The notes under the pieces: generated by a model | The model's database searches: none | Seen by the model: only the letters and a program-made list of their open reading frames with translations | Told to the model about the DNA's origin: nothing | Program-made: the position numbers and the translations under genes | Assembly: GCA_000004985.1 (NCBI GenBank) | Contig: GG738890.1 | Source: Naegleria gruberi | Taxonomy: Eukaryota | Direction: 5' to 3' (one strand) | DNA length: 64,000 nt | Part shown: piece after piece, positions 20,331 through 64,000 of the stretch | How positions within the stretch are numbered: position 1 is the stretch's first letter | Layout of the letters: each line of letters opens with the position of its first letter

Positions 20331-21041
20331 TTAAATCCTTGAAGTGAGCATTCTTCTTCCATTCTGATGGAATATGAAATTTTTTTCTAAAAACCTGAAG
20401 TAATGACGAAGTGTTTTGGCTGAGACAAAACTTAAGACATCTCCATCGGATAGTCTATCACCAACTTCGTAGTTACGTCTAATCTCCTTGATAGTAGTTA
20501 GACCCCAATGTTTACCAGTGAAATCCTCATCAGCGGATTCCTCATCAGGGTCTTCATCAAGTTGATTAGCTTGTTGCAGAACAGGAGGAACAGCTTCGAG
20601 ATGCTTTATTCTCTCACCCAAAGAAGTGATGGCGTTGAGAATAGCATCAAGGTTCTTTTCAGAACCAGCTTGGTTGTTATCCAAGGTTTTGGATGTTGGG
20701 TCAACCACAGAGGGGAGTGAAGCTGAGCTACCATTGTCAGTTACTGGGATGTAACCAGACTTGTAGGTAGAAGTTGAGGATTTGCTTGCTGAAACTCTTT
20801 GACGAATGTTGGAAATATTCGCCTTGCTTGGTGTTTGAACCATTTCAATATACTTAATTTTTTTGAGCATAAAATTATTTATCAACTCAATTTTATTGTT
20901 TACAATTTGTCGAAATACTAACGTTGCATCGTTCCTCGCAACTCTACATTTGTCACTACTAATCATTCCCTGTTGTTCAAATGGTACGTCAACTCCTTGT
21001 TGTGTCATACAAACTTCATCAATTATTGCTTGTTCAGACAT
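20331..21041 (-). CDS. Hypothetical Ser/Thr-rich protein
   Basis: The listed ORF starts with GTG; the first ATG is at 21039-21041. It has a coiled-coil/low-complexity middle, and its C-terminus runs into the frame discontinuity at about 20330-20400. Confidence 0.4.
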   Translation of the reverse strand: MSEQAIIDEVCMTQQGVDVPFEQQGMISSDKCRVARNDATLVFRQIVNNKIELINNFMLKKIKYIEMVQTPSKANISNIRQRVSASKSSTSTYKSGYIPVTDNGSSASLPSVVDPTSKTLDNNQAGSEKNLDAILNAITSLGERIKHLEAVPPVLQQANQLDEDPDEESADEDFTGKHWGLTTIKEIRRNYEVGDRLSDGDVLSFVSAKTLRHYFRFLEKNFIFHQNGRRMLTSRI

Positions 21042-21360: not shown

Positions 21361-21870
21361 TCTAGTACGTGATGTACTTTGATGATTCTTCGAGTGGTTT
21401 CACATCCGTAAGCTGCCAAACGTTCACATCATCATCTCAACATCATCTAAATAGTAGTAATAGTAGTAATTTTTATTATTGGACTTTCATCATAAAATAG
21501 TAAATCAATTTTTGGATTATAATTTTTCAAGTTGGTAAACCATCATCGGAACACTCACCAACCGTCATCATAGATATATTTAATATAGTAGAATAGTATG
21601 GGTGATTTCTATGTCTTGGAAATATCTTTATTTTGGTGAAACTCAACATTTTACTAAAATCATCCTCACTGTTGAATCCATTGGAAAGATTGGAAAACTA
21701 TTAATGTAGGATTGTTGGAAATGGTCAATAGTAGCATAGTAAATTTTGAACAGTGGATTTTCATCAAGTTTTAATAGGGATAGGTACATGTGAATTTTAA
21801 AAAGTACATGTACCATTACTCAACATGTACTTGACCAACTTGGAAATCTTCTAGTACTATTGTTTAAATC
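21361..21870. repeat. Interstitial copy of the subtelomeric repeat (about 75-80% identical to 62831..63535)
   Basis: It shares ordered blocks with the terminal repeat: cgagtggtttcacatc, caaac.ttcacatcatcatctcaacat, tagtagtaat..agtaatttttatt, aagttggtaaaccatcatcgga.cactcaccaacc.tcatcat, gataggtacatgt...caacatgtacttgaccaacttggaaa. Confidence 0.6.
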
Positions 21871-22695: not shown

Positions 22696-22769
22696 GCAGC
22701 GATAGATCAGTTGGTTAGATCGTAAGCCTAACACGCTTAAGGTCGCGGGTTCAAGCCCCGCTCGCTGTA
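22696..22769 (+). tRNA. tRNA-Val (anticodon AAC)
   Basis: Cloverleaf: acceptor GCAGCGA/TCGCTGT, D-stem GATC/GATC, anticodon stem TAAGC/GCTTA with loop CTAACAC (AAC). T-arm GCGGG-TTCAAGC-CCCGC. Discriminator A, followed by a downstream T-run. Confidence 0.9.
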
Positions 22770-22951: not shown

Positions 22952-24493
22952 CTATTCTTTAGCATTTTTCATTCTCATTGATTGCATTGCTTGACTAATC
23001 TCCTTATTGGAAGATTTCAATCTTTCGAATAAATCAGACATGTCCAATAAACAGTGATTTTCCAATTTTTCAAAGAAATTCAAATCCAAACTTTCACTTT
23101 CTTCGATAAGTTTCGAATATTCTACATTCTTCTGTTGAATATAAGGAATATTCAATTCGAAAGGTGAACCAATCGTTAAATAATTCTCAACAATCTTTCT
23201 CGCATGATTTTTCACAACTTGTTGGTCAACTGAACGTTTCTTGAAAATTTCCTTAAATTTCTGAATATCTTTCCAAGACGAAACACTTTCCACACAGAAA
23301 GAACGTCTCGCAAAATCCAAAACAATCTCAAAATATTTTCTATTCAGTAAAATTAATTCAACTTCTGATTTTTCTTCAACTTGAGTTTCGGTTTGATTCG
23401 TTTTCTTTGAATTTAAATATTGAGAAACTGCTCCATACACAGCAGGTCCAAACGTATAAATCAAAACTTCACACAATGAATAAACTGTCAGGGTATATCC
23501 AAAAGGTAGAAAATAATCAACCAATGATGAAATGACATCGATTCCTGTCATTACTCCAAATGAAATAATTCCAACAAGTTGAATCACCAAAAGTATGACA
23601 GTATCTCTCTTGATATTCCATGTATCCTTATCTGAGATCATTGCAAGAATAATGGAAACAAATTCCAATATGAAAAACATTACAAAAACACATGCCAAAA
23701 GGATTACAAAATTTGTGCTCAATGCACAGCCATGTGAAAAGTTAAAGAACCCAGTGTCTGGAATCATGATTTTGGGTGATGAGGGATTGGATTGATACAT
23801 GGTTTCTTCCACAGCTCCCAAAATTATCCATAATAAGATGACGCCAAATGTCAATAGAAAATAACAAATCATCATGAATTTGTAACTTGCCAAGAATGTG
23901 AATATTTTCATTTTCAACTTCTTTTTCCTATCCAATAACATGCTTTCTCCATCCTCCTGTTTGATCGATGTTTGAATTGTTTCCTCCTTCATGGTACTTG
24001 TCAACTCAATTTGACTTGTATTTTGCATGTCGTGCATGGATGACGAAATTTCACCACTACTCAAAGATTTGACATTAAAACTCTTCAACAGATTCAACCT
24101 ATACAATGCAAACAATCGAATACATCTAAAACTGGTCGGCATTGTAAACATTGCAGGGATTAGAATAAAAACTAGAGTAAACAATCCACATGGAAAAATC
24201 TGTCGTCCAATGGCCAACCGAAACAACAATAATCCTGTCAAAGTACAATGAGCACACACTGAAAAAACCAAATAGAATGGGTCTCTTGCCTTTACATAAC
24301 CAGATTTTCTATAAATTATTGTCAAAATTATTCCACTCAACCCGAAAATAAACATGGCAGCAATGAACATTGATGAAGTAATTGTGGTGGAAACAAAGTC
24401 AGGACATAGACCATATTTTTCGGTGGAATTGTTGGAAAGAAGTAGTGGATGACAAGTGGAATTAGTAGAGGAGGTGATGTTTTGTGTGGTCAT
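22952..24493 (-). CDS. Seven-transmembrane receptor with C-terminal RGS domain (7TM-RGS, AtRGS1-like architecture)
   Basis: About 7-8 hydrophobic helices in the N-terminal 330 aa. C-terminal RGS-like block: FEIVLDFARRSFCVESVSSWKDIQKFKEIFKK...ARKIVENYLTIGSPFELNIPYIQ. Confidence 0.75.
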   Translation of the reverse strand: MTTQNITSSTNSTCHPLLLSNNSTEKYGLCPDFVSTTITSSMFIAAMFIFGLSGIILTIIYRKSGYVKARDPFYLVFSVCAHCTLTGLLLFRLAIGRQIFPCGLFTLVFILIPAMFTMPTSFRCIRLFALYRLNLLKSFNVKSLSSGEISSSMHDMQNTSQIELTSTMKEETIQTSIKQEDGESMLLDRKKKLKMKIFTFLASYKFMMICYFLLTFGVILLWIILGAVEETMYQSNPSSPKIMIPDTGFFNFSHGCALSTNFVILLACVFVMFFILEFVSIILAMISDKDTWNIKRDTVILLVIQLVGIISFGVMTGIDVISSLVDYFLPFGYTLTVYSLCEVLIYTFGPAVYGAVSQYLNSKKTNQTETQVEEKSEVELILLNRKYFEIVLDFARRSFCVESVSSWKDIQKFKEIFKKRSVDQQVVKNHARKIVENYLTIGSPFELNIPYIQQKNVEYSKLIEESESLDLNFFEKLENHCLLDMSDLFERLKSSNKEISQAMQSMRMKNAKE

Positions 24494-25407: not shown

Positions 25408-25481
25408 GCAGCGATAGATCAGTTGGTTAGATCGTAAGCCTAACACGCTTAAGGTCGCGGGTTCAAGCCCCGCTCGCTGTA
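25408..25481 (+). tRNA. tRNA-Val (anticodon AAC), second identical copy
   Basis: 74 nt identical to 22696..22769. About 25 bp upstream (gaacatttca..tgaatgtaa) and 14 bp downstream (ctgtatccatttta) are also shared. Confidence 0.9.
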
Positions 25482-29736: not shown

Positions 29737-31200
29737 TTAAAAACCATCAAAGTTAGTATCACTCAAGTAGGATTGTCTTGATGAGCTTCTACTATCATTG
29801 ACAGGCATAAATTCACAAACAAAATCATTCCACTCAGCAAAAACATTGGCCAACTCCTTGCTCGGATCGCTTCTACCACCAAGAATCATCATTTGGTCAT
29901 CAGAGAAATCGGATGTAGAAACACCATTAGATTGTAAATTGAACATTCTTTCTTCAATTTCAATTTCTCTTCTGATAAATTCATCTTCATCTTGACAATT
30001 ATCAAAACAAGTTTCATCATATGATTCTTGTTGATAGGTTGGTGAGGCAACATCTAATTTACATTCGTATGGAACAATGGCTGAACCTTCACAGAGAAGA
30101 ATTTCCTGTTGGTCAAAGTTGTACACTGACTCGTCAACTAGATCATCTTCCAAGCTAATTGGAGCATTTCTAATATCAAAGTCTTGTCTCTTTTCTGATT
30201 TTATGAGAGGAGCTGATGATGGTCTAATGATAAGTTGTTGTTGACTTGTTGTTGAGGTGGTAATCATTTGGAAAGGATCTTCATTACACAATAAATCACC
30301 TTCGTTGGAGAGGTGACTATCTGTGCTACTAACATTGGAAACACTTCTCTTCTTTCTACTTTGAATACTGGATGAGGAGCTCTTTTTAGCTTCAGTTTCA
30401 AGGGTATCCTTGAGTTTTTCTGGAATTGGAACATTTGAATTACAGGTAATGTTGGTTCTCGAGATTGGTCTACCTTTTCCTTCTTGTTCATACTTTCTAA
30501 GCATGATCCATCTGTGTCTGCATTGAATATCAGTTCTTCCTTGGAATGAATCAGCAATACTCTTCCAAGCACTTTCACCAAATTCTCTGACCTTATCAAT
30601 GAGGATGTTATCTTCCTCTTCATTCCATGGTTTTTTACAAATCTTTGGATTTAAGACTCTCCACCAATGTTGATTACATTGGTCGCTATTCTTTGTGGCT
30701 ACCATCTTGGCAATTTCATTCCACTTCTTTTCACCATACTTTTCAATGGCTTTGAGGAGGAGTTCATTTTCATTCTTGGTCCATCTGTTGCAACTCTTTC
30801 TCTTACCATTGGCACCATCATCAGTTGGTGAAGTTGGTTCCGATTTAACCTTTGGTGGTTTTGTTGATGATTTTGAGGCACTGTTCTTTCTCTTAGTTTT
30901 TGATGTTTTAGTGATGGAATTAATTGGTGTACGAGGGAGGGCAGCAATATCAAAGTCTTCCTCTGGTTCCTTCTTTGGTGGCATTGTTGAAACAACAGAG
31001 GCCATAGCTTTCTGTTGTTGTTGCTGTTGTTGCAAGAGGATGGTTGTATGATTAAGGGAGCTGTACAAAACTGATGAGGTATTACCAAGGACCATATTAA
31101 TAGGAGCTGATGTTATAGTCATTGGTGTTATGGAGGATGAGGATATTTCAATCCCCGAGTTAAGGCCGGTTGGGCTACTGGTTCTAGAACTTTTCACCAT
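29737..31200 (-). CDS. Myb-domain (R2R3-type) DNA-binding protein
   Basis: Two Myb/SANT repeats: RWTKNENELLLKAIEKYGEKKWNEIAKMV...QCNQHWWRVLNP and KPWNEEEDNILIDKVREFGESAWKSIADSF.GRTDIQCRHRWIML. There is a poly-Q tract, and a CAA/CAG repeat at about 31020. Confidence 0.7.
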   Translation of the reverse strand: MVKSSRTSSPTGLNSGIEISSSSITPMTITSAPINMVLGNTSSVLYSSLNHTTILLQQQQQQQKAMASVVSTMPPKKEPEEDFDIAALPRTPINSITKTSKTKRKNSASKSSTKPPKVKSEPTSPTDDGANGKRKSCNRWTKNENELLLKAIEKYGEKKWNEIAKMVATKNSDQCNQHWWRVLNPKICKKPWNEEEDNILIDKVREFGESAWKSIADSFQGRTDIQCRHRWIMLRKYEQEGKGRPISRTNITCNSNVPIPEKLKDTLETEAKKSSSSSIQSRKKRSVSNVSSTDSHLSNEGDLLCNEDPFQMITTSTTSQQQLIIRPSSAPLIKSEKRQDFDIRNAPISLEDDLVDESVYNFDQQEILLCEGSAIVPYECKLDVASPTYQQESYDETCFDNCQDEDEFIRREIEIEERMFNLQSNGVSTSDFSDDQMMILGGRSDPSKELANVFAEWNDFVCEFMPVNDSRSSSRQSYLSDTNFDGF

Positions 31201-34310: not shown

Positions 34311-34480
34311 TTTTTTAAAGTTGAGAAGATTTTCCCTTTGACTTGGTCGTTAATTTTATGGCAAAATGTTGTGAATTCGTTTTTGAATTGTTTGCGTTGT
34401 GAATTCTAAACCTTCAAATGTGAGTAATAAATAGGGATTTTGTTGACATTTTTGATTTTGTTGATTTTTTACTGACAGGT

Positions 34481-35563
34481 ATGAAGGTTTGGAATTCACA
34501 ACGCAAACAATTCATTTTTAATATTAGAATTCTTTTGCCAGAGGCTTTTTTATTCAAAATTAACAAAAAAACAAAACTAAATATGCTTGCTGTAGTTAAT
34601 GAAGGTGTCGAAAGATTGATAAAGGAAGCTGAGAGAAAGAAAGAAGTGGCTTTGCAAGTGAGAAATCTATTCGAAAGTTCAGATGAAATCTCTGATGAAA
34701 TTCTCAAAGAAAGTAAGCAGCTTTGGGAAGAGTTTGGATTCACAGAGGAAATGTCCAAGATTACTAATAGAAAGTTGGCAATTCAAATTTTGCAAATGTT
34801 TGAAGATAAATTGGATGAAATTCTTCTTTTACTTTCTAACAAAGTTAATCCAACACAAGAAGAAACTAAACGAAAGGATAGAGATCCAAAGGTTTCTGAT
34901 TATTTCCATAGGAGAATTCGTTTCGGTATGAAAACAGATAGTGTTGATGCACTTTCGTATGTAACTCCATACAGACAAGCAAGAGATGTTTCTCATCATA
35001 TTTTGAAACAATTCGAAACTCAATTTCATAACATTCCAACTCATATCTATGATGCCACTGGAGGAATTGGCGGAAACACCTTTGGTTTCGTCGATATTCT
35101 CAGAAAATACTATTGCACTCAACAAGTGAATTTGAAAAGTTTCGAAATGGATTCGAATAGATGCAACTGCTTGAGAGATAACTTGAAAGTTTATCTGAAA
35201 GAATATTCCAGACAAGACATGAGAAAAATATCAACTCAAGTACTGGAAGGAAATTTCCTTGAGTTATGGAAAGAAATTCCACAAAACGAAAGAACAAATA
35301 GTTTAGTCCTAATTGATGCTCCATGGGGTAATTCAGATTATTCGAAACATTCGATTATTTACGATTTGTATCTATTCGATAATGAAACTCAGAAGAGTGT
35401 TAATGAAATTTCACATGAATTACTTTACAATGATGGAGTTTCTATGGTTGTGCTGAAAGTTCCAATGCATTATAGTGAAATGAATTTAGTTTCGAATAGT
35501 GAAAAGGTGAAAGTTGAAAGCTATCTCTTGAGAAAGAGTAAATATTTAATCATTTATAAATAA
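34481..35563 (+). CDS. tgs1: Trimethylguanosine synthase (RNA cap guanine-N2 methyltransferase, TGS1)
   Basis: SDYFHRRIRFGMKTDSVDALSYVTPYRQARDVSHHIL matches TGS1 [37 protein letters not shown]. Motif I IYDATGGIGGNTF. The catalytic LVLIDAPWGNSDY matches VVFLSPPWGGPDY. Confidence 0.7.
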   Translation: MKVWNSQRKQFIFNIRILLPEAFLFKINKKTKLNMLAVVNEGVERLIKEAERKKEVALQVRNLFESSDEISDEILKESKQLWEEFGFTEEMSKITNRKLAIQILQMFEDKLDEILLLLSNKVNPTQEETKRKDRDPKVSDYFHRRIRFGMKTDSVDALSYVTPYRQARDVSHHILKQFETQFHNIPTHIYDATGGIGGNTFGFVDILRKYYCTQQVNLKSFEMDSNRCNCLRDNLKVYLKEYSRQDMRKISTQVLEGNFLELWKEIPQNERTNSLVLIDAPWGNSDYSKHSIIYDLYLFDNETQKSVNEISHELLYNDGVSMVVLKVPMHYSEMNLVSNSEKVKVESYLLRKSKYLIIYK

Positions 35564-51928: not shown

Positions 51929-54900
51929 ATGAAAGTAAAGATCTCATTTCTCTTGCTCAATATTTTATTCCTTCTCTTCCTGTCAATATTTCTTGACACT
52001 TCATTGAGTGCTGACACCTTAACTTTTGTTTCGAAAGGAAATGCGCCTCAAACAGGTTCTTCTTTATATTTCCATAAAGCTAGTAACAAGTTGTATGCGT
52101 TTGGAGGTACCACTGATAGTAACAATGTTGTAAATACTATTAAATCTGTCAGTGTCACGTCAACTGTGTTACAGAGCTTGTCAAATCTTAATTCTAACTT
52201 CTCAACGACTAGTTTGTCCATTAGTACTTCTTTATCATCTGTAGGATCAGTATCAACAGCGTTTTCTTATGGAGCTTTTCATATTTTGACAATTGACAAT
52301 CAAGAATATGCATATATATTTGGAGGATCAAATAATCGTATTCAAAGAGCAAATACTTCCTCATTAACATCATTTACAACACTTTATAGTACATTACCTG
52401 AAGCCTATTTTGGAGGAGCTACCTTTAGAACAGAAAGTTTCGTCTATTTGATTAGTGGAAGTGGAACGAAGGCAATGTATAGAGCTAGTGTCAGTAATCC
52501 AACAAATTGGACAAATATTGGTAATTTTCCAGTTACTATTGTGATGCCAGGAGTTTTTACTTACAAAAGAAAAGTTTATTTGGTTGGAGGTTCTTCTTCC
52601 TATTTAGGAGGAACTAATTATAATACTATTTACTTTGCAACTTTTGATGCTCTTGACAAGATGACAAGCAGTTCGAGTGGAGTTTGGTCCCTATCCACTT
52701 CCAAGTTACCAGTAGCAGCAGGTAGCTCAACATTCTTCATGACTGATACATATGCTTACATGACATCTGGCACTCTTGGTACAAAACTTTACCGAGCTCC
52801 TCTTTCTTCATTAACAACCTGGACAGATAGTACACTGACCACCCCTTACTCAGCCTCTCTCGTCACTTCCTTCACAAGTGGTAATACTCTTCTCTACTAT
52901 GCTGGTTTGAAATATTCGACAATTTTATTTTGGACTTCAATTTCATCACTTGATAATTTTTACACTTCACAAGTTGAAGAGTTTAAGGGATGTTTTAGTG
53001 TGCCAGTTTCGGATTTGACTGTTTGTAATGGAAGAGGAGGCTGCGTTGCAAGGGATGTATGTCAATGTAGTGATGGGTTTTATGGAGATGCTTGTCAGTT
53101 TGAAAGAGTTTGTTATGGAGTGACAGCTGGCAGTTCGAATGTTTGTTCTGGAAATGGAGTTTGTATGGCTGATAATACGTGTGTTTGCAATAGTGAAAGT
53201 ACTGGTTCTACATGCTCTGATTTTACTTGTTTTGGTATTTCTCCAACTGATTCGAATATTTGCTCTGGAAATGGAAATTGTCTTTCACATGACAAGTGCC
53301 AATGTAAAACTGGATATTCTGGACAAAATTGTGATTCTTTCACTTGTTATGGACTCCCACCAAGTGATCCAAAGGTTTGCTCTTCCTTAGGTCCATGCAT
53401 TGGTTACAACAATTGTTCATGTCCAAATTCTCTGGCCGAAGATTGTTCTGCATTTGGATGTAATGGAATAAGCGCCAATAATCCGAGTGTTTGCTCTGGA
53501 AATGGGATTTGCACTTCTTTGGATGTTTGTGTTTGTAATGAGACAGTTAGTGGTCAATTTTGTAATGTGTTTTCATGTTTTAATGTTTCGAATGATGATT
53601 CGAATGTTTGTTCGGGAAAGGGAAGTTGTTTGAAATCAGATATGTGCTCTTGTCAGAATGGATACAGTGGTAGCCAGTGTGAATTATTTTCATGTGGTGG
53701 AATTAGTCGTTTGGACAGTTTAGTTTGTTCTGGAAATGGAAGTTGCATTTCTCCTGATTTGTGTAAATGTAATGAGGGATGGAGTGGTGATAATTGTGAA
53801 TTTCCATCATGTTTTGGATATTTATCAACTGATGGATTAGCTTGTAGTGGTTATGGAACTTGTGTTTCGAATAATAGCTGTCTCTGTGCGCAAGGATTTC
53901 GTGGTCAATCATGTGAAATTTACACTTGTAATGGCAAATCAAATCAAGAAATTCAATGCTCTGGAAATGGTCAATGTTCTCCTCAAACTCTCACTTGTAA
54001 TTGTAGAGAGAATTACTTTGGACAAGATTGCGAATATTTCACTTGTTTTGGTGTGCTAAATAATCAAACAAATGTTTGCTCTGGACATGGCATTTGTTTG
54101 GGTATTAATAATTGCTCTTGTGAGAGTGGTTATTTTGGATTTTCATGTGAATTGCATTCATGTGATGGTATTCCACAATTGTCTGACATTTACAAGAATA
54201 TGACAAATAGTCCTTTCTCAAATTGGGAAAACCAAATTCCTTGTAATGGTAGAGGAGCATGTACTGCACTCGATACTTGCCAATGTGATTCTGGTTATTT
54301 GGGAAAATATTGTTCAGATTTCAAATGTTTTGACAAGCTCGTTAATGACACAAATGTTTGTTCAGGGAATGGAACATGTACATCTCCAAATAAGTGTCAA
54401 TGCAAAGAAGGATTCTATGGAAATGAATGTGAAAGTTTTGATTGTTTTGGAATTGAAAAATCATTCAAAACTGTTTGTTCTTCAGCTGGCATTTGTATTT
54501 CTCCTGAAAATTGTTTTTGTAAGGCAGGATTTTATGGAGCTGATTGTTCCAAGTATGAATGTTATGGTCTATTATTTAATAATTCGAATGTTTGTTCAGG
54601 AAATGGCAAGTGTTTGGAGCCAGAAAGTTGTCAATGCAAGGAAGGATTCTTGGGTAATAATTGTGAACTTTATTATTGTTATGGAAAGGTCAATAACGAA
54701 ACGAGTGTTTGTGGAGGAAATGGAAAATGTTCTTCATTGAATACATGTGAATGTAGGGATGGATATATTGGGGATGAGTGCTCTGTTTACAAGTGTTTCG
54801 AAACATTTAGTAACGATTCCACAGTATGCTCCTCTTTTGGTAAATGTTCTGGAATTGATACATGTATTTGCAATGCAGAACATTTTGGAGAAAAGTGTGA

Positions 54901-57900
54901 ATTAACTTGGTGTCATGGAAAGGCTTCAAATGATAGCTCAGTATGTAACGGTAAAGGAATTTGTAACAGCTTTGACACATGCATTTGTGATCAAGATTAT
55001 TTTGGTGAAACTTGTCAAGATTTCAAATGTGGAACCCTGTTAAAGAATGATTCTATGGTTTGTTCTGGAAGTGGATCATGTTCAAGCCCAAATAATTGCA
55101 CATGTTTGGATGGTTATTTTGGAACTCATTGTGAATTATTTGAATGTCAAGGAAAGCTCCTCAATGATTCTAATGTTTGCTCTGGAAATGGAACATGTCA
55201 ATCTCCAAATAAGTGTCAATGCAAAGAAGGATTCCATGGGAATGAATGTGAAAGTTTTGATTGTTTTGGAATTGAAAAATCATTCAAAACTGTTTGTTCT
55301 TCAGCTGGCTCGTGTATTTCTCCTGAACATTGCGTTTGTAGGGCAGGATTTTATGGAGCTGATTGTTCCAAGTATGAATGTTATGGTCTATTATTCAATA
55401 ATTCGAATGTTTGTTCAGGAAATGGCAAGTGCTTGGAGCCAGAAAGTTGTCAATGCAAAGAAGGATACTACGGAAATGTATGTGACAGTTTTGATTGTTT
55501 TGGAATTGAAAAATCATCAGAAACTGTTTGCAACTCAGTTGGATCTTGCATTTCTCCTAACTTGTGCAAATGCAAGGATGATTTCTATGGAGCTACCTGT
55601 GAAAAGTTTAAATGCTTTGGTGTTAATATGACCGATGAAAAAGCATGTAATCAGAAAGGTACATGTATTGGAAAAGACTTGTGCACTTGTGAGAATGGAT
55701 ATTTCGGTAGTAACTGTTCCCAATTTGGTTGTTTTGGAATTGTTAGTAGCAATGCTAGTGTTTGTTCGAATGGAAATGGCAAATGCATTGGTAGAGATGA
55801 GTGTGAATGTTTAACAACCAAAAATGGTTATTACACTGGAAATGAATGTCAATACTTTGTGTCTAACATTACACAAGTTGCATTTGTAATAGATATTGAT
55901 GAAAATAGAAAGGAAATATTATCAGAACCTGGTGAAGATAGATTTGTGAACTTAAAAGTAACAATGAGCTCGTTGTCAAATGTTACCTTCTTGGTATGGT
56001 GTAATAATTGTACAAATTTTACAAATACTGGAATGGATAATGCTCTTGTTTTTTATACACCCCAAATGGTTATTGATGTTTCTAATTTAGCTGTAGGAGG
56101 TACATTTGAATTTTCAGTCATTAGTCAGAACATGGCAGAGAAAACCGAATTCTCCAATATTAGAAAGTTTATCTTGGCAATAGTGGTTCGCCCTATTGAA
56201 CCTTATAAACCTACTGACGTACGAATTGAAAGTTTAGAGGTATCCAACTTTCCAAAGGCAATTATCTACTCATCCTCTCTCAAGTTTGATTTCATTCTTT
56301 CCAAATTGACTTTGAACAATTTAGAAGGCAGCAAATTGTTAATGAGTGATTGTATTTCACTCACTGACGAATCTTGTCAATTAAGATATAATTATAATGT
56401 ATCTGTTTTTGATACATTTAAAAAAGAAGAAATTATCTATGGTTTGAAGGTTAAAGGACATGTATTCTGCCCCGTAGCCAATTATACTAATACTCTAAAG
56501 CTTTCACCTGCTATTAATGTTCAGTTCGCTCTTCCAACAAGTAACTTTTCCGCTTCTTCCCTCAAAATAGTTTTTAGTTTTGAAATTGGAAGTGAAAATT
56601 ATTCAATCCAAACATATTCCCAATCAGAATTAGTTTCTGTGAGTGCTGAAGGTATAAAACCTCCAAATAATTATCAAGTACAAGTTTCTCCTCAAACATC
56701 AGTAGCCATAGTAGAGAATGTCACAATAGCTTCACCTGTTTGGAATTGTGACAATGAAAATTTCAATCCTATTCGCTACGCATTTGGTTTTTACAATCCT
56801 ACTGTCGATAGTAAGAAAGCATGGATAAAGTTGACAGAATATTCCACAAATCCAACAGCTAGTTTCCCACTTCCTTATCTATCCAAGCAATTAAGCACTT
56901 CCATGCAAGTAGAAGTTGTAATATTTGTGATGGACTCTCAAGGGAATAGTCAATATCTGAAAATAGGGCAAGCAAAAGTTTCTCCATTTCAAGGAATTTT
57001 GCCTTCCTCCATGAGTGATCTAGAGAGAAGTGTTCTAGCCTACGATCAATTTACTCTATCCCATATGGCTGACAGTTCTGTGGTTGTGGATATCGTTAAG
57101 AGTATTTCTGTAAATCCTGCAGATCCTGGATCTTCATTGAAAGTTCTGGACTCGCTGACTTCTGACAGTAGCTTGTTGAGTAATCCAGATATTGCAAGTC
57201 AAGTGGCTGATACAGTTACCTCCTTCTTGTCAAGTGCCCTTGAACTTTATCAAAACGAGCTTAAAACAAATGGTTTTGTCTCGTCTAAAATGTCAGAAGA
57301 AGCCAAATCATCAGCTGTTTCAGTAATTTCCAATTTGTTTACATCTGTTGACACAAATTCAACAACATCTGCAAGTAATGATATTGCCAAAAAGACAGAA
57401 CAAATGATTCTCTCCTTCTCCAAGTTAGTTCTAGCCTCAGAAGTTCCAAAAGTGTTAGAAACAAGTGACTCTGGATCTCTCGCATTACCAGTGTTACAGT
57501 ACAATACTCCATCCATGAATGTTACATTCTCCTCATTCATGCTTAGTGGTGGTGCTTCAAAGAGGTCTTCTAACAATCAAGGTACTTATCAATTAACAAG
57601 TGGAGAATCAAATATTCAAATAGACTTGAATGAAATAGTTGGAAAATACGGAGGCTATTCGAAACCACTTGGATTGTCCCTTGTCACTTTTGAAAAGAAT
57701 ACCAAGGTTGATAACTTTTCCCTTTCCAATCCAATGTCCTCTATAATCAACGAGTTGAAATATTACCAAAACTCTGAAATTGTGAAGTTGAATGATTTAG
57801 ATAGTCCAATATCTTTGCAATTTGGAATTAACTCTGCTTCTCTTTTACTCCTTTCTAAAGGGGCAAGCATTACCTCTCAGGAAAGTTTCAATCAAACTCA

Positions 57901-59833
57901 AAATGTAACAATAATACAGGAACCCTATGTTAGTTGCATGTATTGGGATGAAATTGAGAATGGATGGAGAGATTACGGGTGTACACTTCTTTCCTTTGAT
58001 AATGTAACTGGAAAGGCAGAATGTGCCTGTACTCACACCACTAAATTCTCAACCTTTGTGCAATACAAGAAGAGAAATGTTACCTCCACTTTAACACCTG
58101 CTCAAGTTGTTGCTGCTCTCAGTGAAACAACATTTGAAATTATCCTGAATAGCTTTGAAATAGTTGCAGGAGTAGTCTTTGGTTTTTTCTCATTCATTTT
58201 GTTGGTGCTCTTGATAGTGTACAGAAAGCGCCAGCCAATTCAGAGCAGAATGTTGACACCGTATATTGGTATGGTAGCATTACTTGTTGAGAATGTTTTA
58301 ATTTCCATACTACAGAAAGGTCTCCTTCTCCAAGATACGAGTAATCCATCGAATAGCAGTGATAGTTTAATCTTGGGAGCCAATTTGACAGGAAATATTT
58401 GCATGATTATTGTAAATACCTTGAATATTACTGCCATCTTTGCCTATTTAGTTCAAGTTATTCGATTCCAATTCATGAAGTCACTCTATGAAAAGATTAA
58501 GAGAACAAGAACAGAACCATCAAGGAAAATAATCCAATTTTTGAAATTCATTACTTCCAAACTTGTATTCTCAGTTTCGGTGTTCATTTGTGCGTGTGTC
58601 AACTTGTTGTTATGGACAGTGTGGGTAGCTATATTGAGATCTAACACTATTGATTCATCCACTTATACTAAAGGAAGTGCAATTTGTTATGCCATACTAT
58701 TAATTGGATGTAGCATCTTGATTTCCATTACAATTATTGTTGATATTTTCACAACTGTTACACGAGATGACGATCAACAAATTACTGAAAGAGCCAGATC
58801 CAAAATCTTCTCACCAGAGGAAATGAAAAACATCAAAGAAGGCATTGAAGAAGTGCAAAGTACCTCAGCAGCCTCTCCAATAAGTATTACTGATACACCA
58901 TCCTATTCATCCTTTGAATTGAGAAAATTATTTAGAAAATTCCTCCACCGAGATGAACCACTGTACTTTAGAATGGAAATGCTCTTCTTCTTGACATGCT
59001 TTGTTTTCTGTATCATTCAATTAGTAACTGGCTTGATTATTGATCAAATCAAATCATCTGAATCAACAGTAACTCCAACAATACGTGCCCTCTCAGTCAT
59101 TCAATTCATATTTGAAGTACTCTACTCTGCAACCTACTTGCTTGTATTTGGTGGTTTCTCTCTACTTGTTCTCATTAAACAAAAGAAGGCAACAAAAAAG
59201 CCAATCAATGAAGCTGATTCACTATTTGACGATTCAGAAGTGATGGAATTATTCCAAGATGTACAAGGATTTGAAATCTTTGAAGAGTTTGCTCAAAAGG
59301 AATTCTCTGTTGAAAACCTCTATCTCTATGCTGAATTGTTATCCAACAAACAAGTGATTGCTGGTAATGCTCTCCGAAAACTACCAAACTTTTTGGAAGT
59401 ACTCTCTGATAAGTTTATCCAAAATGGATCCACCTATGAAGTGAATATTCCCTCCTCTACAAAGACTGAATTCAACCAATTGAGAAAATCCCTAAAGGAG
59501 GTGTTAATCATGATGAATACTCAAAGTGGAGGGCAACAACAAGCCCATGTTGTGGATATTATTCTTGAGGATGGAGATGAGCAAGATGACAATAATCGTG
59601 TTGAAGATAATGTAATTGGCAAGAATCTAGATGAGGAAAATTCTCTGAAGGCAAAAGTGTTAAGCTTCTTTGATGCTCTCTCACGACAAGTTGCCATTAA
59701 TTTGAGCGATACATTCAGTCGTTTTGCCAATACCAAGAGTTACAAATCCTACAGGAAGAACCGAGATTTCATTCAAAATATGGTCAAAAAGGCCAATGTT
59801 GAAGCCTTCCATACAAGTCCCAATGTTGTCTAG
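51929..59833 (+). CDS. Giant adhesion-GPCR-like receptor: signal peptide, N-terminal beta-propeller-like region, about 30 tenascin-type EGF-like repeats, GPS motif, 7TM, C-terminal RGS domain
   Basis: Repeated CxGxGxCxxxxxCxCxxGxxGxxC units across about 52980..55860. GPS-like CMYWDEIENGWRDYGCTLLSFDNVTGKAECACTHTTKFSTF. Seven hydrophobic helices at 58140..59180. C-terminal RGS consensus FEEFAQKEFSVENLYLYAELL...YEVNIP. Confidence 0.8.
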   Translation: MKVKISFLLLNILFLLFLSIFLDTSLSADTLTFVSKGNAPQTGSSLYFHKASNKLYAFGGTTDSNNVVNTIKSVSVTSTVLQSLSNLNSNFSTTSLSISTSLSSVGSVSTAFSYGAFHILTIDNQEYAYIFGGSNNRIQRANTSSLTSFTTLYSTLPEAYFGGATFRTESFVYLISGSGTKAMYRASVSNPTNWTNIGNFPVTIVMPGVFTYKRKVYLVGGSSSYLGGTNYNTIYFATFDALDKMTSSSSGVWSLSTSKLPVAAGSSTFFMTDTYAYMTSGTLGTKLYRAPLSSLTTWTDSTLTTPYSASLVTSFTSGNTLLYYAGLKYSTILFWTSISSLDNFYTSQVEEFKGCFSVPVSDLTVCNGRGGCVARDVCQCSDGFYGDACQFERVCYGVTAGSSNVCSGNGVCMADNTCVCNSESTGSTCSDFTCFGISPTDSNICSGNGNCLSHDKCQCKTGYSGQNCDSFTCYGLPPSDPKVCSSLGPCIGYNNCSCPNSLAEDCSAFGCNGISANNPSVCSGNGICTSLDVCVCNETVSGQFCNVFSCFNVSNDDSNVCSGKGSCLKSDMCSCQNGYSGSQCELFSCGGISRLDSLVCSGNGSCISPDLCKCNEGWSGDNCEFPSCFGYLSTDGLACSGYGTCVSNNSCLCAQGFRGQSCEIYTCNGKSNQEIQCSGNGQCSPQTLTCNCRENYFGQDCEYFTCFGVLNNQTNVCSGHGICLGINNCSCESGYFGFSCELHSCDGIPQLSDIYKNMTNSPFSNWENQIPCNGRGACTALDTCQCDSGYLGKYCSDFKCFDKLVNDTNVCSGNGTCTSPNKCQCKEGFYGNECESFDCFGIEKSFKTVCSSAGICISPENCFCKAGFYGADCSKYECYGLLFNNSNVCSGNGKCLEPESCQCKEGFLGNNCELYYCYGKVNNETSVCGGNGKCSSLNTCECRDGYIGDECSVYKCFETFSNDSTVCSSFGKCSGIDTCICNAEHFGEKCELTWCHGKASNDSSVCNGKGICNSFDTCICDQDYFGETCQDFKCGTLLKNDSMVCSGSGSCSSPNNCTCLDGYFGTHCELFECQGKLLNDSNVCSGNGTCQSPNKCQCKEGFHGNECESFDCFGIEKSFKTVCSSAGSCISPEHCVCRAGFYGADCSKYECYGLLFNNSNVCSGNGKCLEPESCQCKEGYYGNVCDSFDCFGIEKSSETVCNSVGSCISPNLCKCKDDFYGATCEKFKCFGVNMTDEKACNQKGTCIGKDLCTCENGYFGSNCSQFGCFGIVSSNASVCSNGNGKCIGRDECECLTTKNGYYTGNECQYFVSNITQVAFVIDIDENRKEILSEPGEDRFVNLKVTMSSLSNVTFLVWCNNCTNFTNTGMDNALVFYTPQMVIDVSNLAVGGTFEFSVISQNMAEKTEFSNIRKFILAIVVRPIEPYKPTDVRIESLEVSNFPKAIIYSSSLKFDFILSKLTLNNLEGSKLLMSDCISLTDESCQLRYNYNVSVFDTFKKEEIIYGLKVKGHVFCPVANYTNTLKLSPAINVQFALPTSNFSASSLKIVFSFEIGSENYSIQTYSQSELVSVSAEGIKPPNNYQVQVSPQTSVAIVENVTIASPVWNCDNENFNPIRYAFGFYNPTVDSKKAWIKLTEYSTNPTASFPLPYLSKQLSTSMQVEVVIFVMDSQGNSQYLKIGQAKVSPFQGILPSSMSDLERSVLAYDQFTLSHMADSSVVVDIVKSISVNPADPGSSLKVLDSLTSDSSLLSNPDIASQVADTVTSFLSSALELYQNELKTNGFVSSKMSEEAKSSAVSVISNLFTSVDTNSTTSASNDIAKKTEQMILSFSKLVLASEVPKVLETSDSGSLALPVLQYNTPSMNVTFSSFMLSGGASKRSSNNQGTYQLTSGESNIQIDLNEIVGKYGGYSKPLGLSLVTFEKNTKVDNFSLSNPMSSIINELKYYQNSEIVKLNDLDSPISLQFGINSASLLLLSKGASITSQESFNQTQNVTIIQEPYVSCMYWDEIENGWRDYGCTLLSFDNVTGKAECACTHTTKFSTFVQYKKRNVTSTLTPAQVVAALSETTFEIILNSFEIVAGVVFGFFSFILLVLLIVYRKRQPIQSRMLTPYIGMVALLVENVLISILQKGLLLQDTSNPSNSSDSLILGANLTGNICMIIVNTLNITAIFAYLVQVIRFQFMKSLYEKIKRTRTEPSRKIIQFLKFITSKLVFSVSVFICACVNLLLWTVWVAILRSNTIDSSTYTKGSAICYAILLIGCSILISITIIVDIFTTVTRDDDQQITERARSKIFSPEEMKNIKEGIEEVQSTSAASPISITDTPSYSSFELRKLFRKFLHRDEPLYFRMEMLFFLTCFVFCIIQLVTGLIIDQIKSSESTVTPTIRALSVIQFIFEVLYSATYLLVFGGFSLLVLIKQKKATKKPINEADSLFDDSEVMELFQDVQGFEIFEEFAQKEFSVENLYLYAELLSNKQVIAGNALRKLPNFLEVLSDKFIQNGSTYEVNIPSSTKTEFNQLRKSLKEVLIMMNTQSGGQQQAHVVDIILEDGDEQDDNNRVEDNVIGKNLDEENSLKAKVLSFFDALSRQVAINLSDTFSRFANTKSYKSYRKNRDFIQNMVKKANVEAFHTSPNVV

Positions 59834-59882
59834 GTTATTGAAGATGATAGGATAGTTTGAACTTTATCGTGTAACGATGATA

Positions 59883-62830
59883 NNNNNNNNNNNNNNNNNN
59901 NNNNNNNNNNNNNNNNNNNNNNNNNNNNNNNNNNNNNNNNNNNNNNNNNNNNNNNNNNNNNNNNNNNNNNNNNNNNNNNNNNNNNNNNNNNNNNNNNNNN
60001 NNNNNNNNNNNNNNNNNNNNNNNNNNNNNNNNNNNNNNNNNNNNNNNNNNNNNNNNNNNNNNNNNNNNNNNNNNNNNNNNNNNNNNNNNNNNNNNNNNNN
60101 NNNNNNNNNNNNNNNNNNNNNNNNNNNNNNNNNNNNNNNNNNNNNNNNNNNNNNNNNNNNNNNNNNNNNNNNNNNNNNNNNNNNNNNNNNNNNNNNNNNN
60201 NNNNNNNNNNNNNNNNNNNNNNNNNNNNNNNNNNNNNNNNNNNNNNNNNNNNNNNNNNNNNNNNNNNNNNNNNNNNNNNNNNNNNNNNNNNNNNNNNNNN
60301 NNNNNNNNNNNNNNNNNNNNNNNNNNNNNNNNNNNNNNNNNNNNNNNNNNNNNNNNNNNNNNNNNNNNNNNNNNNNNNNNNNNNNNNNNNNNNNNNNNNN
60401 NNNNNNNNNNNNNNNNNNNNNNNNNNNNNNNNNNNNNNNNNNNNNNNNNNNNNNNNNNNNNNNNNNNNNNNNNNNNNNNNNNNNNNNNNNNNNNNNNNNN
60501 NNNNNNNNNNNNNNNNNNNNNNNNNNNNNNNNNNNNNNNNNNNNNNNNNNNNNNNNNNNNNNNNNNNNNNNNNNNNNNNNNNNNNNNNNNNNNNNNNNNN
60601 NNNNNNNNNNNNNNNNNNNNNNNNNNNNNNNNNNNNNNNNNNNNNNNNNNNNNNNNNNNNNNNNNNNNNNNNNNNNNNNNNNNNNNNNNNNNNNNNNNNN
60701 NNNNNNNNNNNNNNNNNNNNNNNNNNNNNNNNNNNNNNNNNNNNNNNNNNNNNNNNNNNNNNNNNNNNNNNNNNNNNNNNNNNNNNNNNNNNNNNNNNNN
60801 NNNNNNNNNNNNNNNNNNNNNNNNNNNNNNNNNNNNNNNNNNNNNNNNNNNNNNNNNNNNNNNNNNNNNNNNNNNNNNNNNNNNNNNNNNNNNNNNNNNN
60901 NNNNNNNNNNNNNNNNNNNNNNNNNNNNNNNNNNNNNNNNNNNNNNNNNNNNNNNNNNNNNNNNNNNNNNNNNNNNNNNNNNNNNNNNNNNNNNNNNNNN
61001 NNNNNNNNNNNNNNNNNNNNNNNNNNNNNNNNNNNNNNNNNNNNNNNNNNNNNNNNNNNNNNNNNNNNNNNNNNNNNNNNNNNNNNNNNNNNNNNNNNNN
61101 NNNNNNNNNNNNNNNNNNNNNNNNNNNNNNNNNNNNNNNNNNNNNNNNNNNNNNNNNNNNNNNNNNNNNNNNNNNNNNNNNNNNNNNNNNNNNNNNNNNN
61201 NNNNNNNNNNNNNNNNNNNNNNNNNNNNNNNNNNNNNNNNNNNNNNNNNNNNNNNNNNNNNNNNNNNNNNNNNNNNNNNNNNNNNNNNNNNNNNNNNNNN
61301 NNNNNNNNNNNNNNNNNNNNNNNNNNNNNNNNNNNNNNNNNNNNNNNNNNNNNNNNNNNNNNNNNNNNNNNNNNNNNNNNNNNNNNNNNNNNNNNNNNNN
61401 NNNNNNNNNNNNNNNNNNNNNNNNNNNNNNNNNNNNNNNNNNNNNNNNNNNNNNNNNNNNNNNNNNNNNNNNNNNNNNNNNNNNNNNNNNNNNNNNNNNN
61501 NNNNNNNNNNNNNNNNNNNNNNNNNNNNNNNNNNNNNNNNNNNNNNNNNNNNNNNNNNNNNNNNNNNNNNNNNNNNNNNNNNNNNNNNNNNNNNNNNNNN
61601 NNNNNNNNNNNNNNNNNNNNNNNNNNNNNNNNNNNNNNNNNNNNNNNNNNNNNNNNNNNNNNNNNNNNNNNNNNNNNNNNNNNNNNNNNNNNNNNNNNNN
61701 NNNNNNNNNNNNNNNNNNNNNNNNNNNNNNNNNNNNNNNNNNNNNNNNNNNNNNNNNNNNNNNNNNNNNNNNNNNNNNNNNNNNNNNNNNNNNNNNNNNN
61801 NNNNNNNNNNNNNNNNNNNNNNNNNNNNNNNNNNNNNNNNNNNNNNNNNNNNNNNNNNNNNNNNNNNNNNNNNNNNNNNNNNNNNNNNNNNNNNNNNNNN
61901 NNNNNNNNNNNNNNNNNNNNNNNNNNNNNNNNNNNNNNNNNNNNNNNNNNNNNNNNNNNNNNNNNNNNNNNNNNNNNNNNNNNNNNNNNNNNNNNNNNNN
62001 NNNNNNNNNNNNNNNNNNNNNNNNNNNNNNNNNNNNNNNNNNNNNNNNNNNNNNNNNNNNNNNNNNNNNNNNNNNNNNNNNNNNNNNNNNNNNNNNNNNN
62101 NNNNNNNNNNNNNNNNNNNNNNNNNNNNNNNNNNNNNNNNNNNNNNNNNNNNNNNNNNNNNNNNNNNNNNNNNNNNNNNNNNNNNNNNNNNNNNNNNNNN
62201 NNNNNNNNNNNNNNNNNNNNNNNNNNNNNNNNNNNNNNNNNNNNNNNNNNNNNNNNNNNNNNNNNNNNNNNNNNNNNNNNNNNNNNNNNNNNNNNNNNNN
62301 NNNNNNNNNNNNNNNNNNNNNNNNNNNNNNNNNNNNNNNNNNNNNNNNNNNNNNNNNNNNNNNNNNNNNNNNNNNNNNNNNNNNNNNNNNNNNNNNNNNN
62401 NNNNNNNNNNNNNNNNNNNNNNNNNNNNNNNNNNNNNNNNNNNNNNNNNNNNNNNNNNNNNNNNNNNNNNNNNNNNNNNNNNNNNNNNNNNNNNNNNNNN
62501 NNNNNNNNNNNNNNNNNNNNNNNNNNNNNNNNNNNNNNNNNNNNNNNNNNNNNNNNNNNNNNNNNNNNNNNNNNNNNNNNNNNNNNNNNNNNNNNNNNNN
62601 NNNNNNNNNNNNNNNNNNNNNNNNNNNNNNNNNNNNNNNNNNNNNNNNNNNNNNNNNNNNNNNNNNNNNNNNNNNNNNNNNNNNNNNNNNNNNNNNNNNN
62701 NNNNNNNNNNNNNNNNNNNNNNNNNNNNNNNNNNNNNNNNNNNNNNNNNNNNNNNNNNNNNNNNNNNNNNNNNNNNNNNNNNNNNNNNNNNNNNNNNNNN
62801 NNNNNNNNNNNNNNNNNNNNNNNNNNNNNN
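59883..62830. other. Assembly gap (run of N, 2948 bp)
   Basis: Contiguous N characters. The ORFs translated across it (the X-runs) are artefacts. Confidence 0.99.
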
Positions 62831-63540
62831 TCGGAGTGGTTTTACATCATGAAACCACCAAACTTTCACATCATCATCTCAACATGATCTATATAGTAGT
62901 AATAATAGTAATTTTTATTGGTGGATTATCATCATGAAATTGGAATTTATTTTTCATGATGGAAAATCATAAGTTGGTGTTCCATCATCGGATCATTCAC
63001 CAACATCATCATTATTGTTTTCCATTAATAATAATGTATAATTTCGAGTCTTGTAGCATAATTTGTGAAAATAATGGATATCTATTATTGGATTGTGATT
63101 ATAAATTTGGAATTTAATTTTGACTTTCACAAATTCAAGTTGGTAAGCCATCATCGGAGCAACTACCAACCATCATCATTGTTATTTATCATCATTATAA
63201 TAGTAATATTTGTGGAAATAAATCTGATAATAGTAATATTTTAATGAAATTCAATGTTTTCACTAAAATCATCATCACTGCCAGATTTATATGATAATTT
63301 GGAAAACTTTCAATCTAGTATTGTTCAGCATGGTCAATTCCATCAGGTAAAATCACTTCCGAACATTTCCCTATTGGTTATCATGATGATAGGTACATGT
63401 ATATTTTCAACATGTGCCTGGACCATATCCCAACATGTACTTCAACTTGGAAAATGTCTTTCGGGTTATTCATGGTCACCAATCATGATTCATGCCAAAA
63501 GTACACAGCCAATCATCTTGAAACATTAATAAACATTTAG
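62831..63540. repeat. Subtelomeric (telomere-associated) repeat containing an internally duplicated ~45-bp motif
   Basis: The unit aagttggt..ccatcatcgga.c...accaac..tcatcatt occurs twice (about 62965 and about 63140). It is homologous to 21361..21870 and directly abuts the terminal simple repeat. Confidence 0.6.
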
Positions 63541-64000
63541 GTTGGGTTTGGGTTTGGGTTTGGGTTTGGGTTTGGGTTTGGGTTTGGGTTTGGGTTTGGG
63601 TTTGGGTTTGGGTTTGGGTTTGGGTTTGGGTTTGGGTTTGGGTTTGGGTTTGGGTTTGGGTTTGGGTTTGGGTTTGGGTTTGGGTTTGGGTTGGGTTTGG
63701 GTTTGGGTTTGGGTTTGGGTTTGGGTTTGGGTTTGGGTTTGGGTTTGGGTTTGGGTTTGGGTTTGGGTTTGGGTTTGGGTTTGGGTTTGGGTTTGGGTTT
63801 GGGTTTGGGTTTGGGTTTGGGTTTGGGTTTGGGTTTGGGTTTGGGTTTGGGTTTGGGTTTGGGTTTGGGTTTGGGTTTGGGTTTGGGTTTGGGTTTGGGT
63901 TTGGGTTTGGGTTTGGGTTTGGGTTTGGGTTTGGGTTTGGGTTTGGGTTTGGGTTTGGGTTTGGGTTTGGGTTTGGGTTTGGGTTTGGGTTTGGGTTTGG
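63541..64000 (+). repeat. Telomere-like terminal tract (TTTGGG)n, G-rich strand 5'->3' toward the window end
   Basis: About 76 perfect hexamer repeats, with one variant unit at about 63688 (ttgggt). The tract runs to the last base of the window. Confidence 0.85.

What the first reader, a model, noticed from the sequence alone, without database searches (positions are those of the whole stretch)
62831..64000. Chromosome end: (TTTGGG)n telomere-like tract with an adjacent structured subtelomeric repeat
The last about 460 bp are nearly perfect TTTGGG hexamers, oriented G-rich 5'->3' toward the terminus. There is one variant unit (ttgggt at about 63688). The 700 bp immediately proximal is a non-coding element built from a duplicated ~45-bp motif rich in catcat and ccatcatcgga. 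A 2.9-kb gap separates it from the last gene, so additional subtelomeric content is unresolved. The repeat unit is not the rDNA-derived terminus described for Dictyostelium discoideum.
Basis: seen in the sequence. Interest (0 to 1): 0.6.

Follow-up and report, generated by a model that had tools for sequence, protein, structure and literature searches.

The report
Naegleria gruberi TTTGGG chromosome-end repeat
The last 459 bases of this window are a real telomere-type (TTTGGG)n tract at the end of a Naegleria gruberi scaffold, a repeat type already proposed for this species from the same assembly in 2013, so the finding is correct but ordinary.

Summary
The tract is real. Positions 63542-64000 hold 74 perfect TTTGGG units and two TTGGG variants. 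The G-rich strand runs 5'->3' into the last base of the window. It occurs nowhere else in the 64 kb.

The organism is Naegleria gruberi NEG-M (Heterolobosea), shown by exact protein matches on a 350,200-bp scaffold. It is not a dictyostelid, so the comparison with Dictyostelium is beside the point. TTTGGG was already published as the candidate N. gruberi telomere repeat (Fulneckova 2013, in silico only).

The "subtelomeric repeat" is only partly as described:
- It is a 166-167-bp unit duplicated in tandem at 71-79% identity, not a 45-bp motif.
- It sits inside a non-coding element of about 630 bp.
- That element has a one-unit homologue 42 kb inward, at 21389-21850, so it is dispersed rather than telomere-specific.
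- About 80 bp of unique sequence separate it from the telomere.

The terminal 1,170-bp contig is joined to the scaffold only across a 2,948-N gap.

I could not test true terminal position, recurrence at other chromosome ends, or telomerase templating, because no other N. gruberi DNA was reachable. Best reading: a genuine telomerase-type chromosome end, already known.

The parts
63542..64000 (+). Telomere-type array: TTGGG, 24 x TTTGGG, TTGGG (63691-63695), 50 x TTTGGG, then TTTGG cut by the window end. The G-rich strand runs 5'->3' outward.
63461..63541 (+). About 80 bp of unique junction sequence between the dispersed element and the array. It ends in TTTAGG (63536-63541).
   Evidence: The alignment with the internal copy stops near 63460. 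Residual similarity further downstream is marginal: 15 of 500 shuffles score as high.
62831..63460 (+). Telomere-adjacent copy of a non-coding dispersed element. Its 5' side is cut by the assembly gap. No conserved ORF and no Pfam hit for its 91-aa ORF.
62911..63077 (+). Unit A of the tandem duplication of about 167 bp. It contains the conserved core AAGTTGGT..CCATCATCGGA..ACCAAC at 62971-63004.
63078..63244 (+). Unit B of the tandem duplication (71-79% identical to unit A). Conserved core at 63137-63170.
59883..62830 (.). Assembly gap of 2,948 N. It joins the 1,170-bp terminal contig to the gene-bearing part of the scaffold.
21389..21850 (+). Internal homologue of the telomere-adjacent element, in the same orientation, carrying a single copy of the 167-bp unit.
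   Evidence: blastn: 78% identity over 185 bp (E 6e-37) and 69% over 379 bp (E 1e-27), with offsets that differ by 167 bp. Alignments.

Best explanation
This is the right-hand end of a Naegleria gruberi nuclear chromosome as captured in the Sanger draft assembly.

The tract of at least 459 bp of (TTTGGG)n is the double-stranded part of the telomere. Its G-rich strand points 3' outward. By analogy with all TnGm/TnAmGo telomeres (inferred, not shown), it is added by telomerase copying a CCCAAA-containing RNA template. The two TTGGG units would then be template-slippage or base-calling variants, and 459 bp is a lower bound set by read length.

The 710 bp proximal to the tract is non-coding. About 80 bp is unique. 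The rest is an old, diverged copy of a dispersed repeat that underwent an internal 167-bp tandem duplication. The repeat probably helped cause the assembly gap (inference). Nothing shows that the element has a telomere function of its own.
For: - Array statistics and orientation.
- Species identity: exact matches to N. gruberi proteins EFC40742-EFC40748 and EFC40837-EFC40841, all on one 350,200-bp scaffold.
- Host origin of the terminal contig: it carries a 69-78% identical homologue of sequence at 21389-21850 in the gene-bearing part of the scaffold. This argues against contamination.
- Literature: an in-silico survey of this assembly, which weighed the position and orientation of candidate repeat stretches, named TTTGGG as the candidate telomere of N. 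gruberi (PMC3622300).
- Behaviour of the motif elsewhere: in a scan of metagenome contigs, tracts at contig termini face outward 26 times and inward 8 times. All 13 contigs of one assembly (JAESGV01) that were returned by the capped scan end in outward TTTGGG.
- Accession numbering of + and - strand genes is compatible with the window holding the last genes of the scaffold. This is a weak inference.
Against: - The tract runs off the window, so the distal side is unseen.
- The terminal contig is linked only through a 2,948-N gap and contains a repeat, so its placement on this particular scaffold could be wrong.
- No other N. gruberi scaffold end, no telomerase reverse transcriptase (TERT) gene and no telomerase RNA could be examined with these tools.
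- The published identification is computational only, and its authors state that experimental confirmation is required.
- (TTTGGG)n also occurs internally in many environmental contigs: 98 internal tracts, the longest perfect run 102 bp.
Confidence: 0.85

Rival explanations
1. The contig is a real telomere but is misplaced. The 1,170-bp contig would be a genuine N. gruberi chromosome end that belongs to a different chromosome, joined here by mate pairs that were misled by the repeat it contains.
For: It is joined only across 2,948 N. More than half of it is a member of a dispersed repeat family.
Against: The two visible copies are only 69-78% identical, too diverged to mislead Sanger mate-pair placement on their own. 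About 80 bp at the junction is unique. The orientation is the one expected for a right-hand end.
Confidence: 0.1
2. The array is an interstitial telomere-like sequence or an ordinary hexanucleotide microsatellite, with unique sequence beyond the window end.
For: The distal flank is not visible. Internal (TTTGGG)n tracts are common in environmental contigs (98 of 132 tracts).
Against: The array is 459 bp at 99% purity, far longer than any internal tract seen (at most 102 bp, although that comparison is with short-read assemblies). It faces outward. The published survey judged the pattern in this assembly convincing for a telomere.
Confidence: 0.04
3. The contig is foreign DNA from another organism that carries T3G3-containing telomeres.
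For: From my own knowledge, not tested here: Paramecium telomeres contain TTGGGT units, which are the same cyclic permutation as TTTGGG.
Against: The proximal 630 bp is homologous to N. gruberi sequence at 21389-21850 on the same scaffold. Base composition also matches the host.
Confidence: 0.01

Closest known systems
Candidate N. gruberi telomere repeat TTTGGG (Fulneckova et al. 2013, Genome Biol Evol, PMC3622300)
   Same: Same species, same assembly, same hexamer. That study also based its call on the position and orientation of repeat stretches in assemblies.
   Different: Nothing substantive. This window is one instance of what that survey summarised. Their per-scaffold table (S5) was not available to me.
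Ciliate-type TnGm telomeres without adenine (Tetrahymena TTGGGG, Oxytricha TTTTGGGG, Paramecium TTGGG[T/G]); comparison from my own knowledge
   Same: A short T/G-only unit with the G-strand pointing outward. The Paramecium TTGGGT variant is the same cyclic permutation as TTTGGG.
   Different: The array here is uniform T3G3 (74 of 76 units). The organism is a heterolobosean with ordinary chromosomes, not a ciliate macronucleus.
Subtelomeric repeat families shared between chromosome ends (for example yeast X and Y' elements, PMC11042809)
   Same: Non-coding repeated DNA lies immediately proximal to the telomere array.
   Different: Sharing between ends could not be tested. The only other copy seen is internal, 42 kb from the end, among housekeeping genes. 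The two copies are old and diverged (69-78%).
DIRS-like tyrosine-recombinase retrotransposons of Naegleria (Piednoel 2011, PMC3266345; N. lovaniensis repeat table, PMC6125883)
   Same: A fragment of the gag-like ORF1 of such an element lies 440 bp from the internal copy of the repeat.
   Different: The related full elements on contigs L121 and L122 share no sequence with the telomere-adjacent element (no blastn match). From my reading of its gene coordinates, L122 has only about 280 bp of non-coding sequence, too little to hold a 460-630-bp element. The element is therefore not part of the retrotransposon.

Membership tests
Telomerase-type telomeric minisatellite | Tandem array of a short T/G-rich unit, highly homogeneous | tested here: met
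   76.7 copies at 99% matches. 74 perfect units. 73 matches against 0.02 expected.
Telomerase-type telomeric minisatellite | G-rich strand runs 5'->3' toward the molecule's end | tested here: met
   All matches are on the + strand and reach the last base of the window.
Telomerase-type telomeric minisatellite | Physically terminal on the chromosome (nothing distal; Bal31-sensitive) | not testable with these tools
   The array is cut by the window end. The N. gruberi scaffold could not be fetched. Accession order is only weakly compatible with a scaffold end.
Telomerase-type telomeric minisatellite | Same repeat at many or all chromosome ends of the genome | not testable with these tools
   No other N. 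gruberi DNA was reachable. The metagenome scan gave no contig related to the window. The literature reports a convincing terminal pattern for this assembly.
Telomerase-type telomeric minisatellite | Telomerase RNA template complementary to the unit, and TERT present | not tested
   Neither gene is in the window. No paper in the searchable library describes them for Naegleria.
Subtelomere-specific repeat family | Copies restricted to regions next to telomeres | tested here: not met
   A homologue lies at 21389-21850, 42 kb from the array, flanked by ordinary genes and a tRNA-Val gene.
Subtelomere-specific repeat family | Shared between different chromosome ends | not testable with these tools
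   Other scaffold ends are unavailable.
Terminal or untranslated region of the DIRS-like retrotransposon | Sequence contiguous with, and conserved in, full copies of the element | tested here: not met
   Homology of the window to L121 and L122 is limited to 20401-20949. Neither contig shows any similarity to 21389-21850 or 62831-63541.
Interstitial telomeric sequence | Unique sequence on both sides of the array | tested here: inconclusive
   Only the proximal flank is visible.

The most novel reading that the evidence does not exclude
The telomere-adjacent element, with its invariant 34-nt core (AAGTTGGT-N3-CCATCATCGGA-N7-ACCAAC, present in all three units seen), could be a functional telomere-associated sequence of Naegleria. 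It might be a protein-binding or boundary module that recurs at many chromosome ends. Alternatively, the 2.9-kb gap could hide a mobile element that preferentially occupies chromosome ends.
Probability: 0.07. Interest if true: 0.4.

Novelty: already known. Interest (0 to 1): 0.15.

Why it matters
It matters little beyond bookkeeping. The window documents one concrete N. gruberi chromosome end: the junction sequence, an array of at least 459 bp and two variant units.

It also shows that the adjacent DNA is a diverged dispersed repeat rather than a dedicated subtelomeric structure.

In the open-access library I could search, the TTTGGG repeat remains only computationally supported for Heterolobosea. 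This locus gives a unique 80-bp junction (63461-63541) that could anchor a single-telomere PCR or Southern assay, or a check of long-read termini. That would make experimental confirmation straightforward.

Tried and rejected
1. Fetching the N. gruberi scaffold or other scaffold ends. Exact-protein look-ups for four window or family proteins found nothing on record.

2. Metagenome scan for (TTTGGG)6. It returned 120 loci, none sharing DNA with the window or with the element. It therefore gave no test of other N. gruberi ends.

3. Identifying the organism behind 13 TTTGGG-ended contigs of assembly JAESGV01.
- Comparing ORF lengths under ciliate and standard genetic codes did not discriminate; the N. 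gruberi control behaved the same way.
- Two homologue searches returned only environmental or distant plant pentatricopeptide-repeat (PPR) hits.
- The organism remains unidentified.

4. Hypothesis that the element is the terminal region of the neighbouring DIRS-like retrotransposon. Rejected: the full reference copies L121 and L122 lack it.

5. Coding potential of the element. The 91-aa ORF at 63254-63529 has no Pfam hit and is not conserved in the internal copy.

6. Secondary structure.
- The core hairpin has z-scores from -0.9 to -3.6, and its stem never varies, so it says nothing about function.
- The whole 711 nt folds at z = -2.25 on only 20 shuffles.
- I do not take this as evidence of a functional structure.

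7. Rfam scan of the window found only two tRNA-Val genes.

8. The Myb protein at 29740-31200 was checked as a possible telomere-binding factor. Pfam finds two Myb repeats in the middle of the protein (residues 140-234 of 487). I read that as an R2R3-type Myb rather than a TRF-type protein with a single C-terminal Myb domain.

9. The Fritz-Laylin 2010 genome paper is not held in the library. N. fowleri and N. lovaniensis genome papers do not mention telomeres.

Full report
**What is there**

Reading 59000-64000 shows five features in order:
- the 3' end of a long + strand gene, with its stop codon at 59831-59833;
- 49 bp of flanking sequence;
- a run of 2,948 N at 59883-62830;
- 711 bp of AT-rich non-coding sequence (62831-63541);
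- an uninterrupted hexamer array that reaches the last base of the window.

Tandem Repeats Finder reports one array at 63542-64000: period 6, 76.7 copies, 99% matches. Parsed unit by unit it reads TTGGG, 24 x TTTGGG, TTGGG (63691-63695), 50 x TTTGGG, then TTTGG cut by the window end. A three-unit probe matches 73 times, all on the + strand and all inside this tract. Dinucleotide-preserving shuffles give 0.02 matches. The array is real, far beyond chance, unique in the window, and its G-rich strand points 5'->3' toward the end.

**Which organism**

Composition is 31-38% G+C with densely packed long ORFs. Exact look-ups of window ORFs return Naegleria gruberi NEG-M proteins. EFC40742, 43, 45, 46 and 48 are on the + strand, and EFC40837, 38, 40 and 41 on the - strand. 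All lie on one 350,200-bp scaffold. The taxonomy is Discoba, Heterolobosea.

**Prior knowledge**

A full-text search for TTTGGG together with Naegleria finds one relevant paper. Fulneckova et al. 2013 (PMC3622300) searched 143 genome assemblies for TnAmGo-type arrays and judged them by position and orientation. [quoted passage not shown] They also stated that experiments are still needed to confirm terminal position.

No later paper in the searchable library deals with Naegleria telomeres, TERT or telomerase RNA. The N. fowleri and N. lovaniensis genome papers do not mention telomeres. The repeat type is therefore already known as a computational candidate from this same assembly.

**The proximal 711 bp**

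The repeat finder shows three collinear blocks of 44, 34 and 41 nt, each recurring at a spacing of 166-167 bp. This is one unit of about 167 bp duplicated in tandem (62911-63077 and 63078-63244) at 71-79% identity, not a 45-bp motif.

A blastn of the 711 bp against the rest of the window gave an unexpected result:
- positions 62834-63012 match 21392-21571 at 78% identity (E 6e-37);
- positions 63083-63453 match 21474-21846 at 69% identity (E 1e-27);
- both matches are in the same orientation, and their offsets differ by exactly 167 bp.

The internal copy therefore carries a single unit where the telomere-adjacent copy has two (alignments). A self-comparison of the window finds no other non-genic dispersed repeat.

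Homology starts at the first base after the gap, so the 5' boundary of the element is hidden. It ends near 63460 and 21850. The last 80 bp or so before the array are unique, and the residual similarity there is marginal (15 of 500 shuffles score as high).

All three units share an invariant core, AAGTTGGT..CCATCATCGGA..ACCAAC. CCATCATCGGA occurs three times against 0.01 expected. The small hairpin the core can form has an invariant stem and unremarkable energies, so it is not evidence of structure. The element has no conserved ORF, and its 91-aa ORF has no Pfam hit.

Two conclusions follow. First, the terminal contig is authentic N. gruberi DNA, not a contaminant. Second, the element is a dispersed, old repeat rather than a demonstrated subtelomere-specific structure.

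**Is the element part of a known mobile element?**

About 440 bp from the internal copy, on the - strand (20401-20949), lies a fragment of an ORF that is multicopy in N. gruberi. Homologues at 74-100% identity sit on at least five scaffolds.

In related environmental contigs this ORF is the first gene of a DIRS-like retrotransposon:
- L121 encodes reverse transcriptase, a Dam-like methyltransferase and a tyrosine recombinase downstream of it.
- N. gruberi EFC35549 joins the same ORF1 to a tyrosine recombinase.
- L122 begins and ends with the same stretch of about 120 bp or more. Its name marks it as a k=127 assembly contig, so I read this as a 127-bp overlap and a circle-like unit of 3,980 bp. 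By its gene coordinates it has only about 280 bp of non-coding sequence.

The window's homology to both contigs is confined to 20401-20949. Neither contig resembles the telomere-adjacent element. I therefore reject the idea that the element is the retrotransposon's terminal region. Its class remains unknown. DIRS-like elements in Naegleria are already on record (PMC3266345; PMC6125883).

**Is it really the end?**

The array is cut by the window, and I could not retrieve the scaffold.

One indirect point is available. + strand genes in the window carry consecutive accessions that end at EFC40748. - strand genes carry a separate ascending block that ends at EFC40841. If the - block begins at EFC40749, it would hold 93 genes. 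That matches the window's density of about 17 - strand genes per 64 kb extrapolated over 350 kb. This is compatible with the window holding the last genes of the scaffold, but it is a weak inference.

**Behaviour of the motif elsewhere**

A scan of metagenome contigs for (TTTGGG)6 returned 120 loci.
- Tracts at contig termini face outward 26 times and inward 8 times.
- All 13 contigs of one assembly (JAESGV01) that were returned by the capped scan end in outward TTTGGG with unique junctions.
- At least one other, unidentified eukaryote therefore uses this repeat terminally.
- None of the 120 loci is related to the window.
- 98 tracts are internal, the longest perfect run 102 bp, so the motif alone does not prove a telomere.

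**Mechanism**

Shown: the sequence, orientation, homogeneity and junction of the array.

Inferred from the general biology of TnGm/TnAmGo telomeres: synthesis by telomerase from a CCCAAA-containing template; the TTGGG units as slippage or base-calling variants; and 459 bp as a lower bound set by Sanger read length. Also inferred: the gap was probably caused by repeated DNA.

The main residual risk is not that the array is something other than a telomere. It is that the 1,170-bp contig, joined only across N's, belongs to another chromosome end (about 10%). An interstitial array is possible at about 4%, and contamination is effectively excluded by the internal homologue.

**Verdict**

The telomere interpretation is well supported, but it rests on a wrong guess at the organism, and the repeat type is already published for this species. 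Novelty: already known. Interest: low (0.15).

The only modestly open item is whether the 630-bp element recurs at other Naegleria chromosome ends. A scan of the full assembly, or of the public Nanopore reads (PMC12695648), would settle that quickly.

Noticed in passing
window 20401-20949 (- strand); related loci L121, L122, L123: This is a fragment of the gag-like ORF1 of a DIRS-like tyrosine-recombinase retrotransposon. It is 100% identical over 148 aa to N. gruberi EFC36893, which lies on another scaffold. Family members sit on at least five scaffolds. Contig L121 shows the full set of reverse transcriptase, Dam-like methyltransferase and tyrosine recombinase.
   Followed up: yes
L122 1-127 and 3981-4107: The environmental DIRS-like contig starts and ends with the same sequence. 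I read this as a 127-bp overlap, inferred from the k=127 contig name, giving a circle-like or tandem unit of 3,980 bp. That could reflect a circular intermediate, a tandem array or an assembler artefact.
   Followed up: partly
window 22696-22769 and 25408-25481: There are two tRNA-Val(AAC) genes 2.7 kb apart. They are 98% identical over 105 bp including short flanks. The internal copy of the repeat lies about 850 bp upstream of the first one.
   Followed up: partly
window 51929-59833 (+): The last gene before the gap encodes a 2,634-aa protein (EFC40748) with about 17 EGF/teneurin-type repeats and a C-terminal RGS domain. It contains an internal 395-bp tandem duplication (54292-54686 against 55111-55505, 87% identity). 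A second, 513-aa protein with an RGS domain is at 22952-24493.
   Followed up: partly
L006, L028, L030, L041, L053, L076, L077, L081, L082, L083, L101, L114, L119 (assembly JAESGV01): Thirteen contigs of one public metagenome assembly all end in outward-facing TTTGGG arrays with different junctions. Some share subtelomeric sequence (for example L077 and L101, 92% over 1.8 kb). L083 carries two DYW-type PPR genes and a Ty3/gypsy-like polyprotein next to the array. The organism was not identified.
   Followed up: partly
window 34384-34514: An imperfect palindrome of 131 bp (71% self-complementary) covers most of the 170-bp divergent intergenic region between the - strand gene ending at 34310 and the + strand trimethylguanosine synthase gene, and overlaps that gene's first 34 bases (start 34481). 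It may be a bidirectional promoter feature.
   Followed up: no
window 19711-20253 (-): A 180-aa ORF with no Pfam match lies directly downstream of the DIRS-like fragment. It may be another repeat-derived or orphan gene.
   Followed up: no
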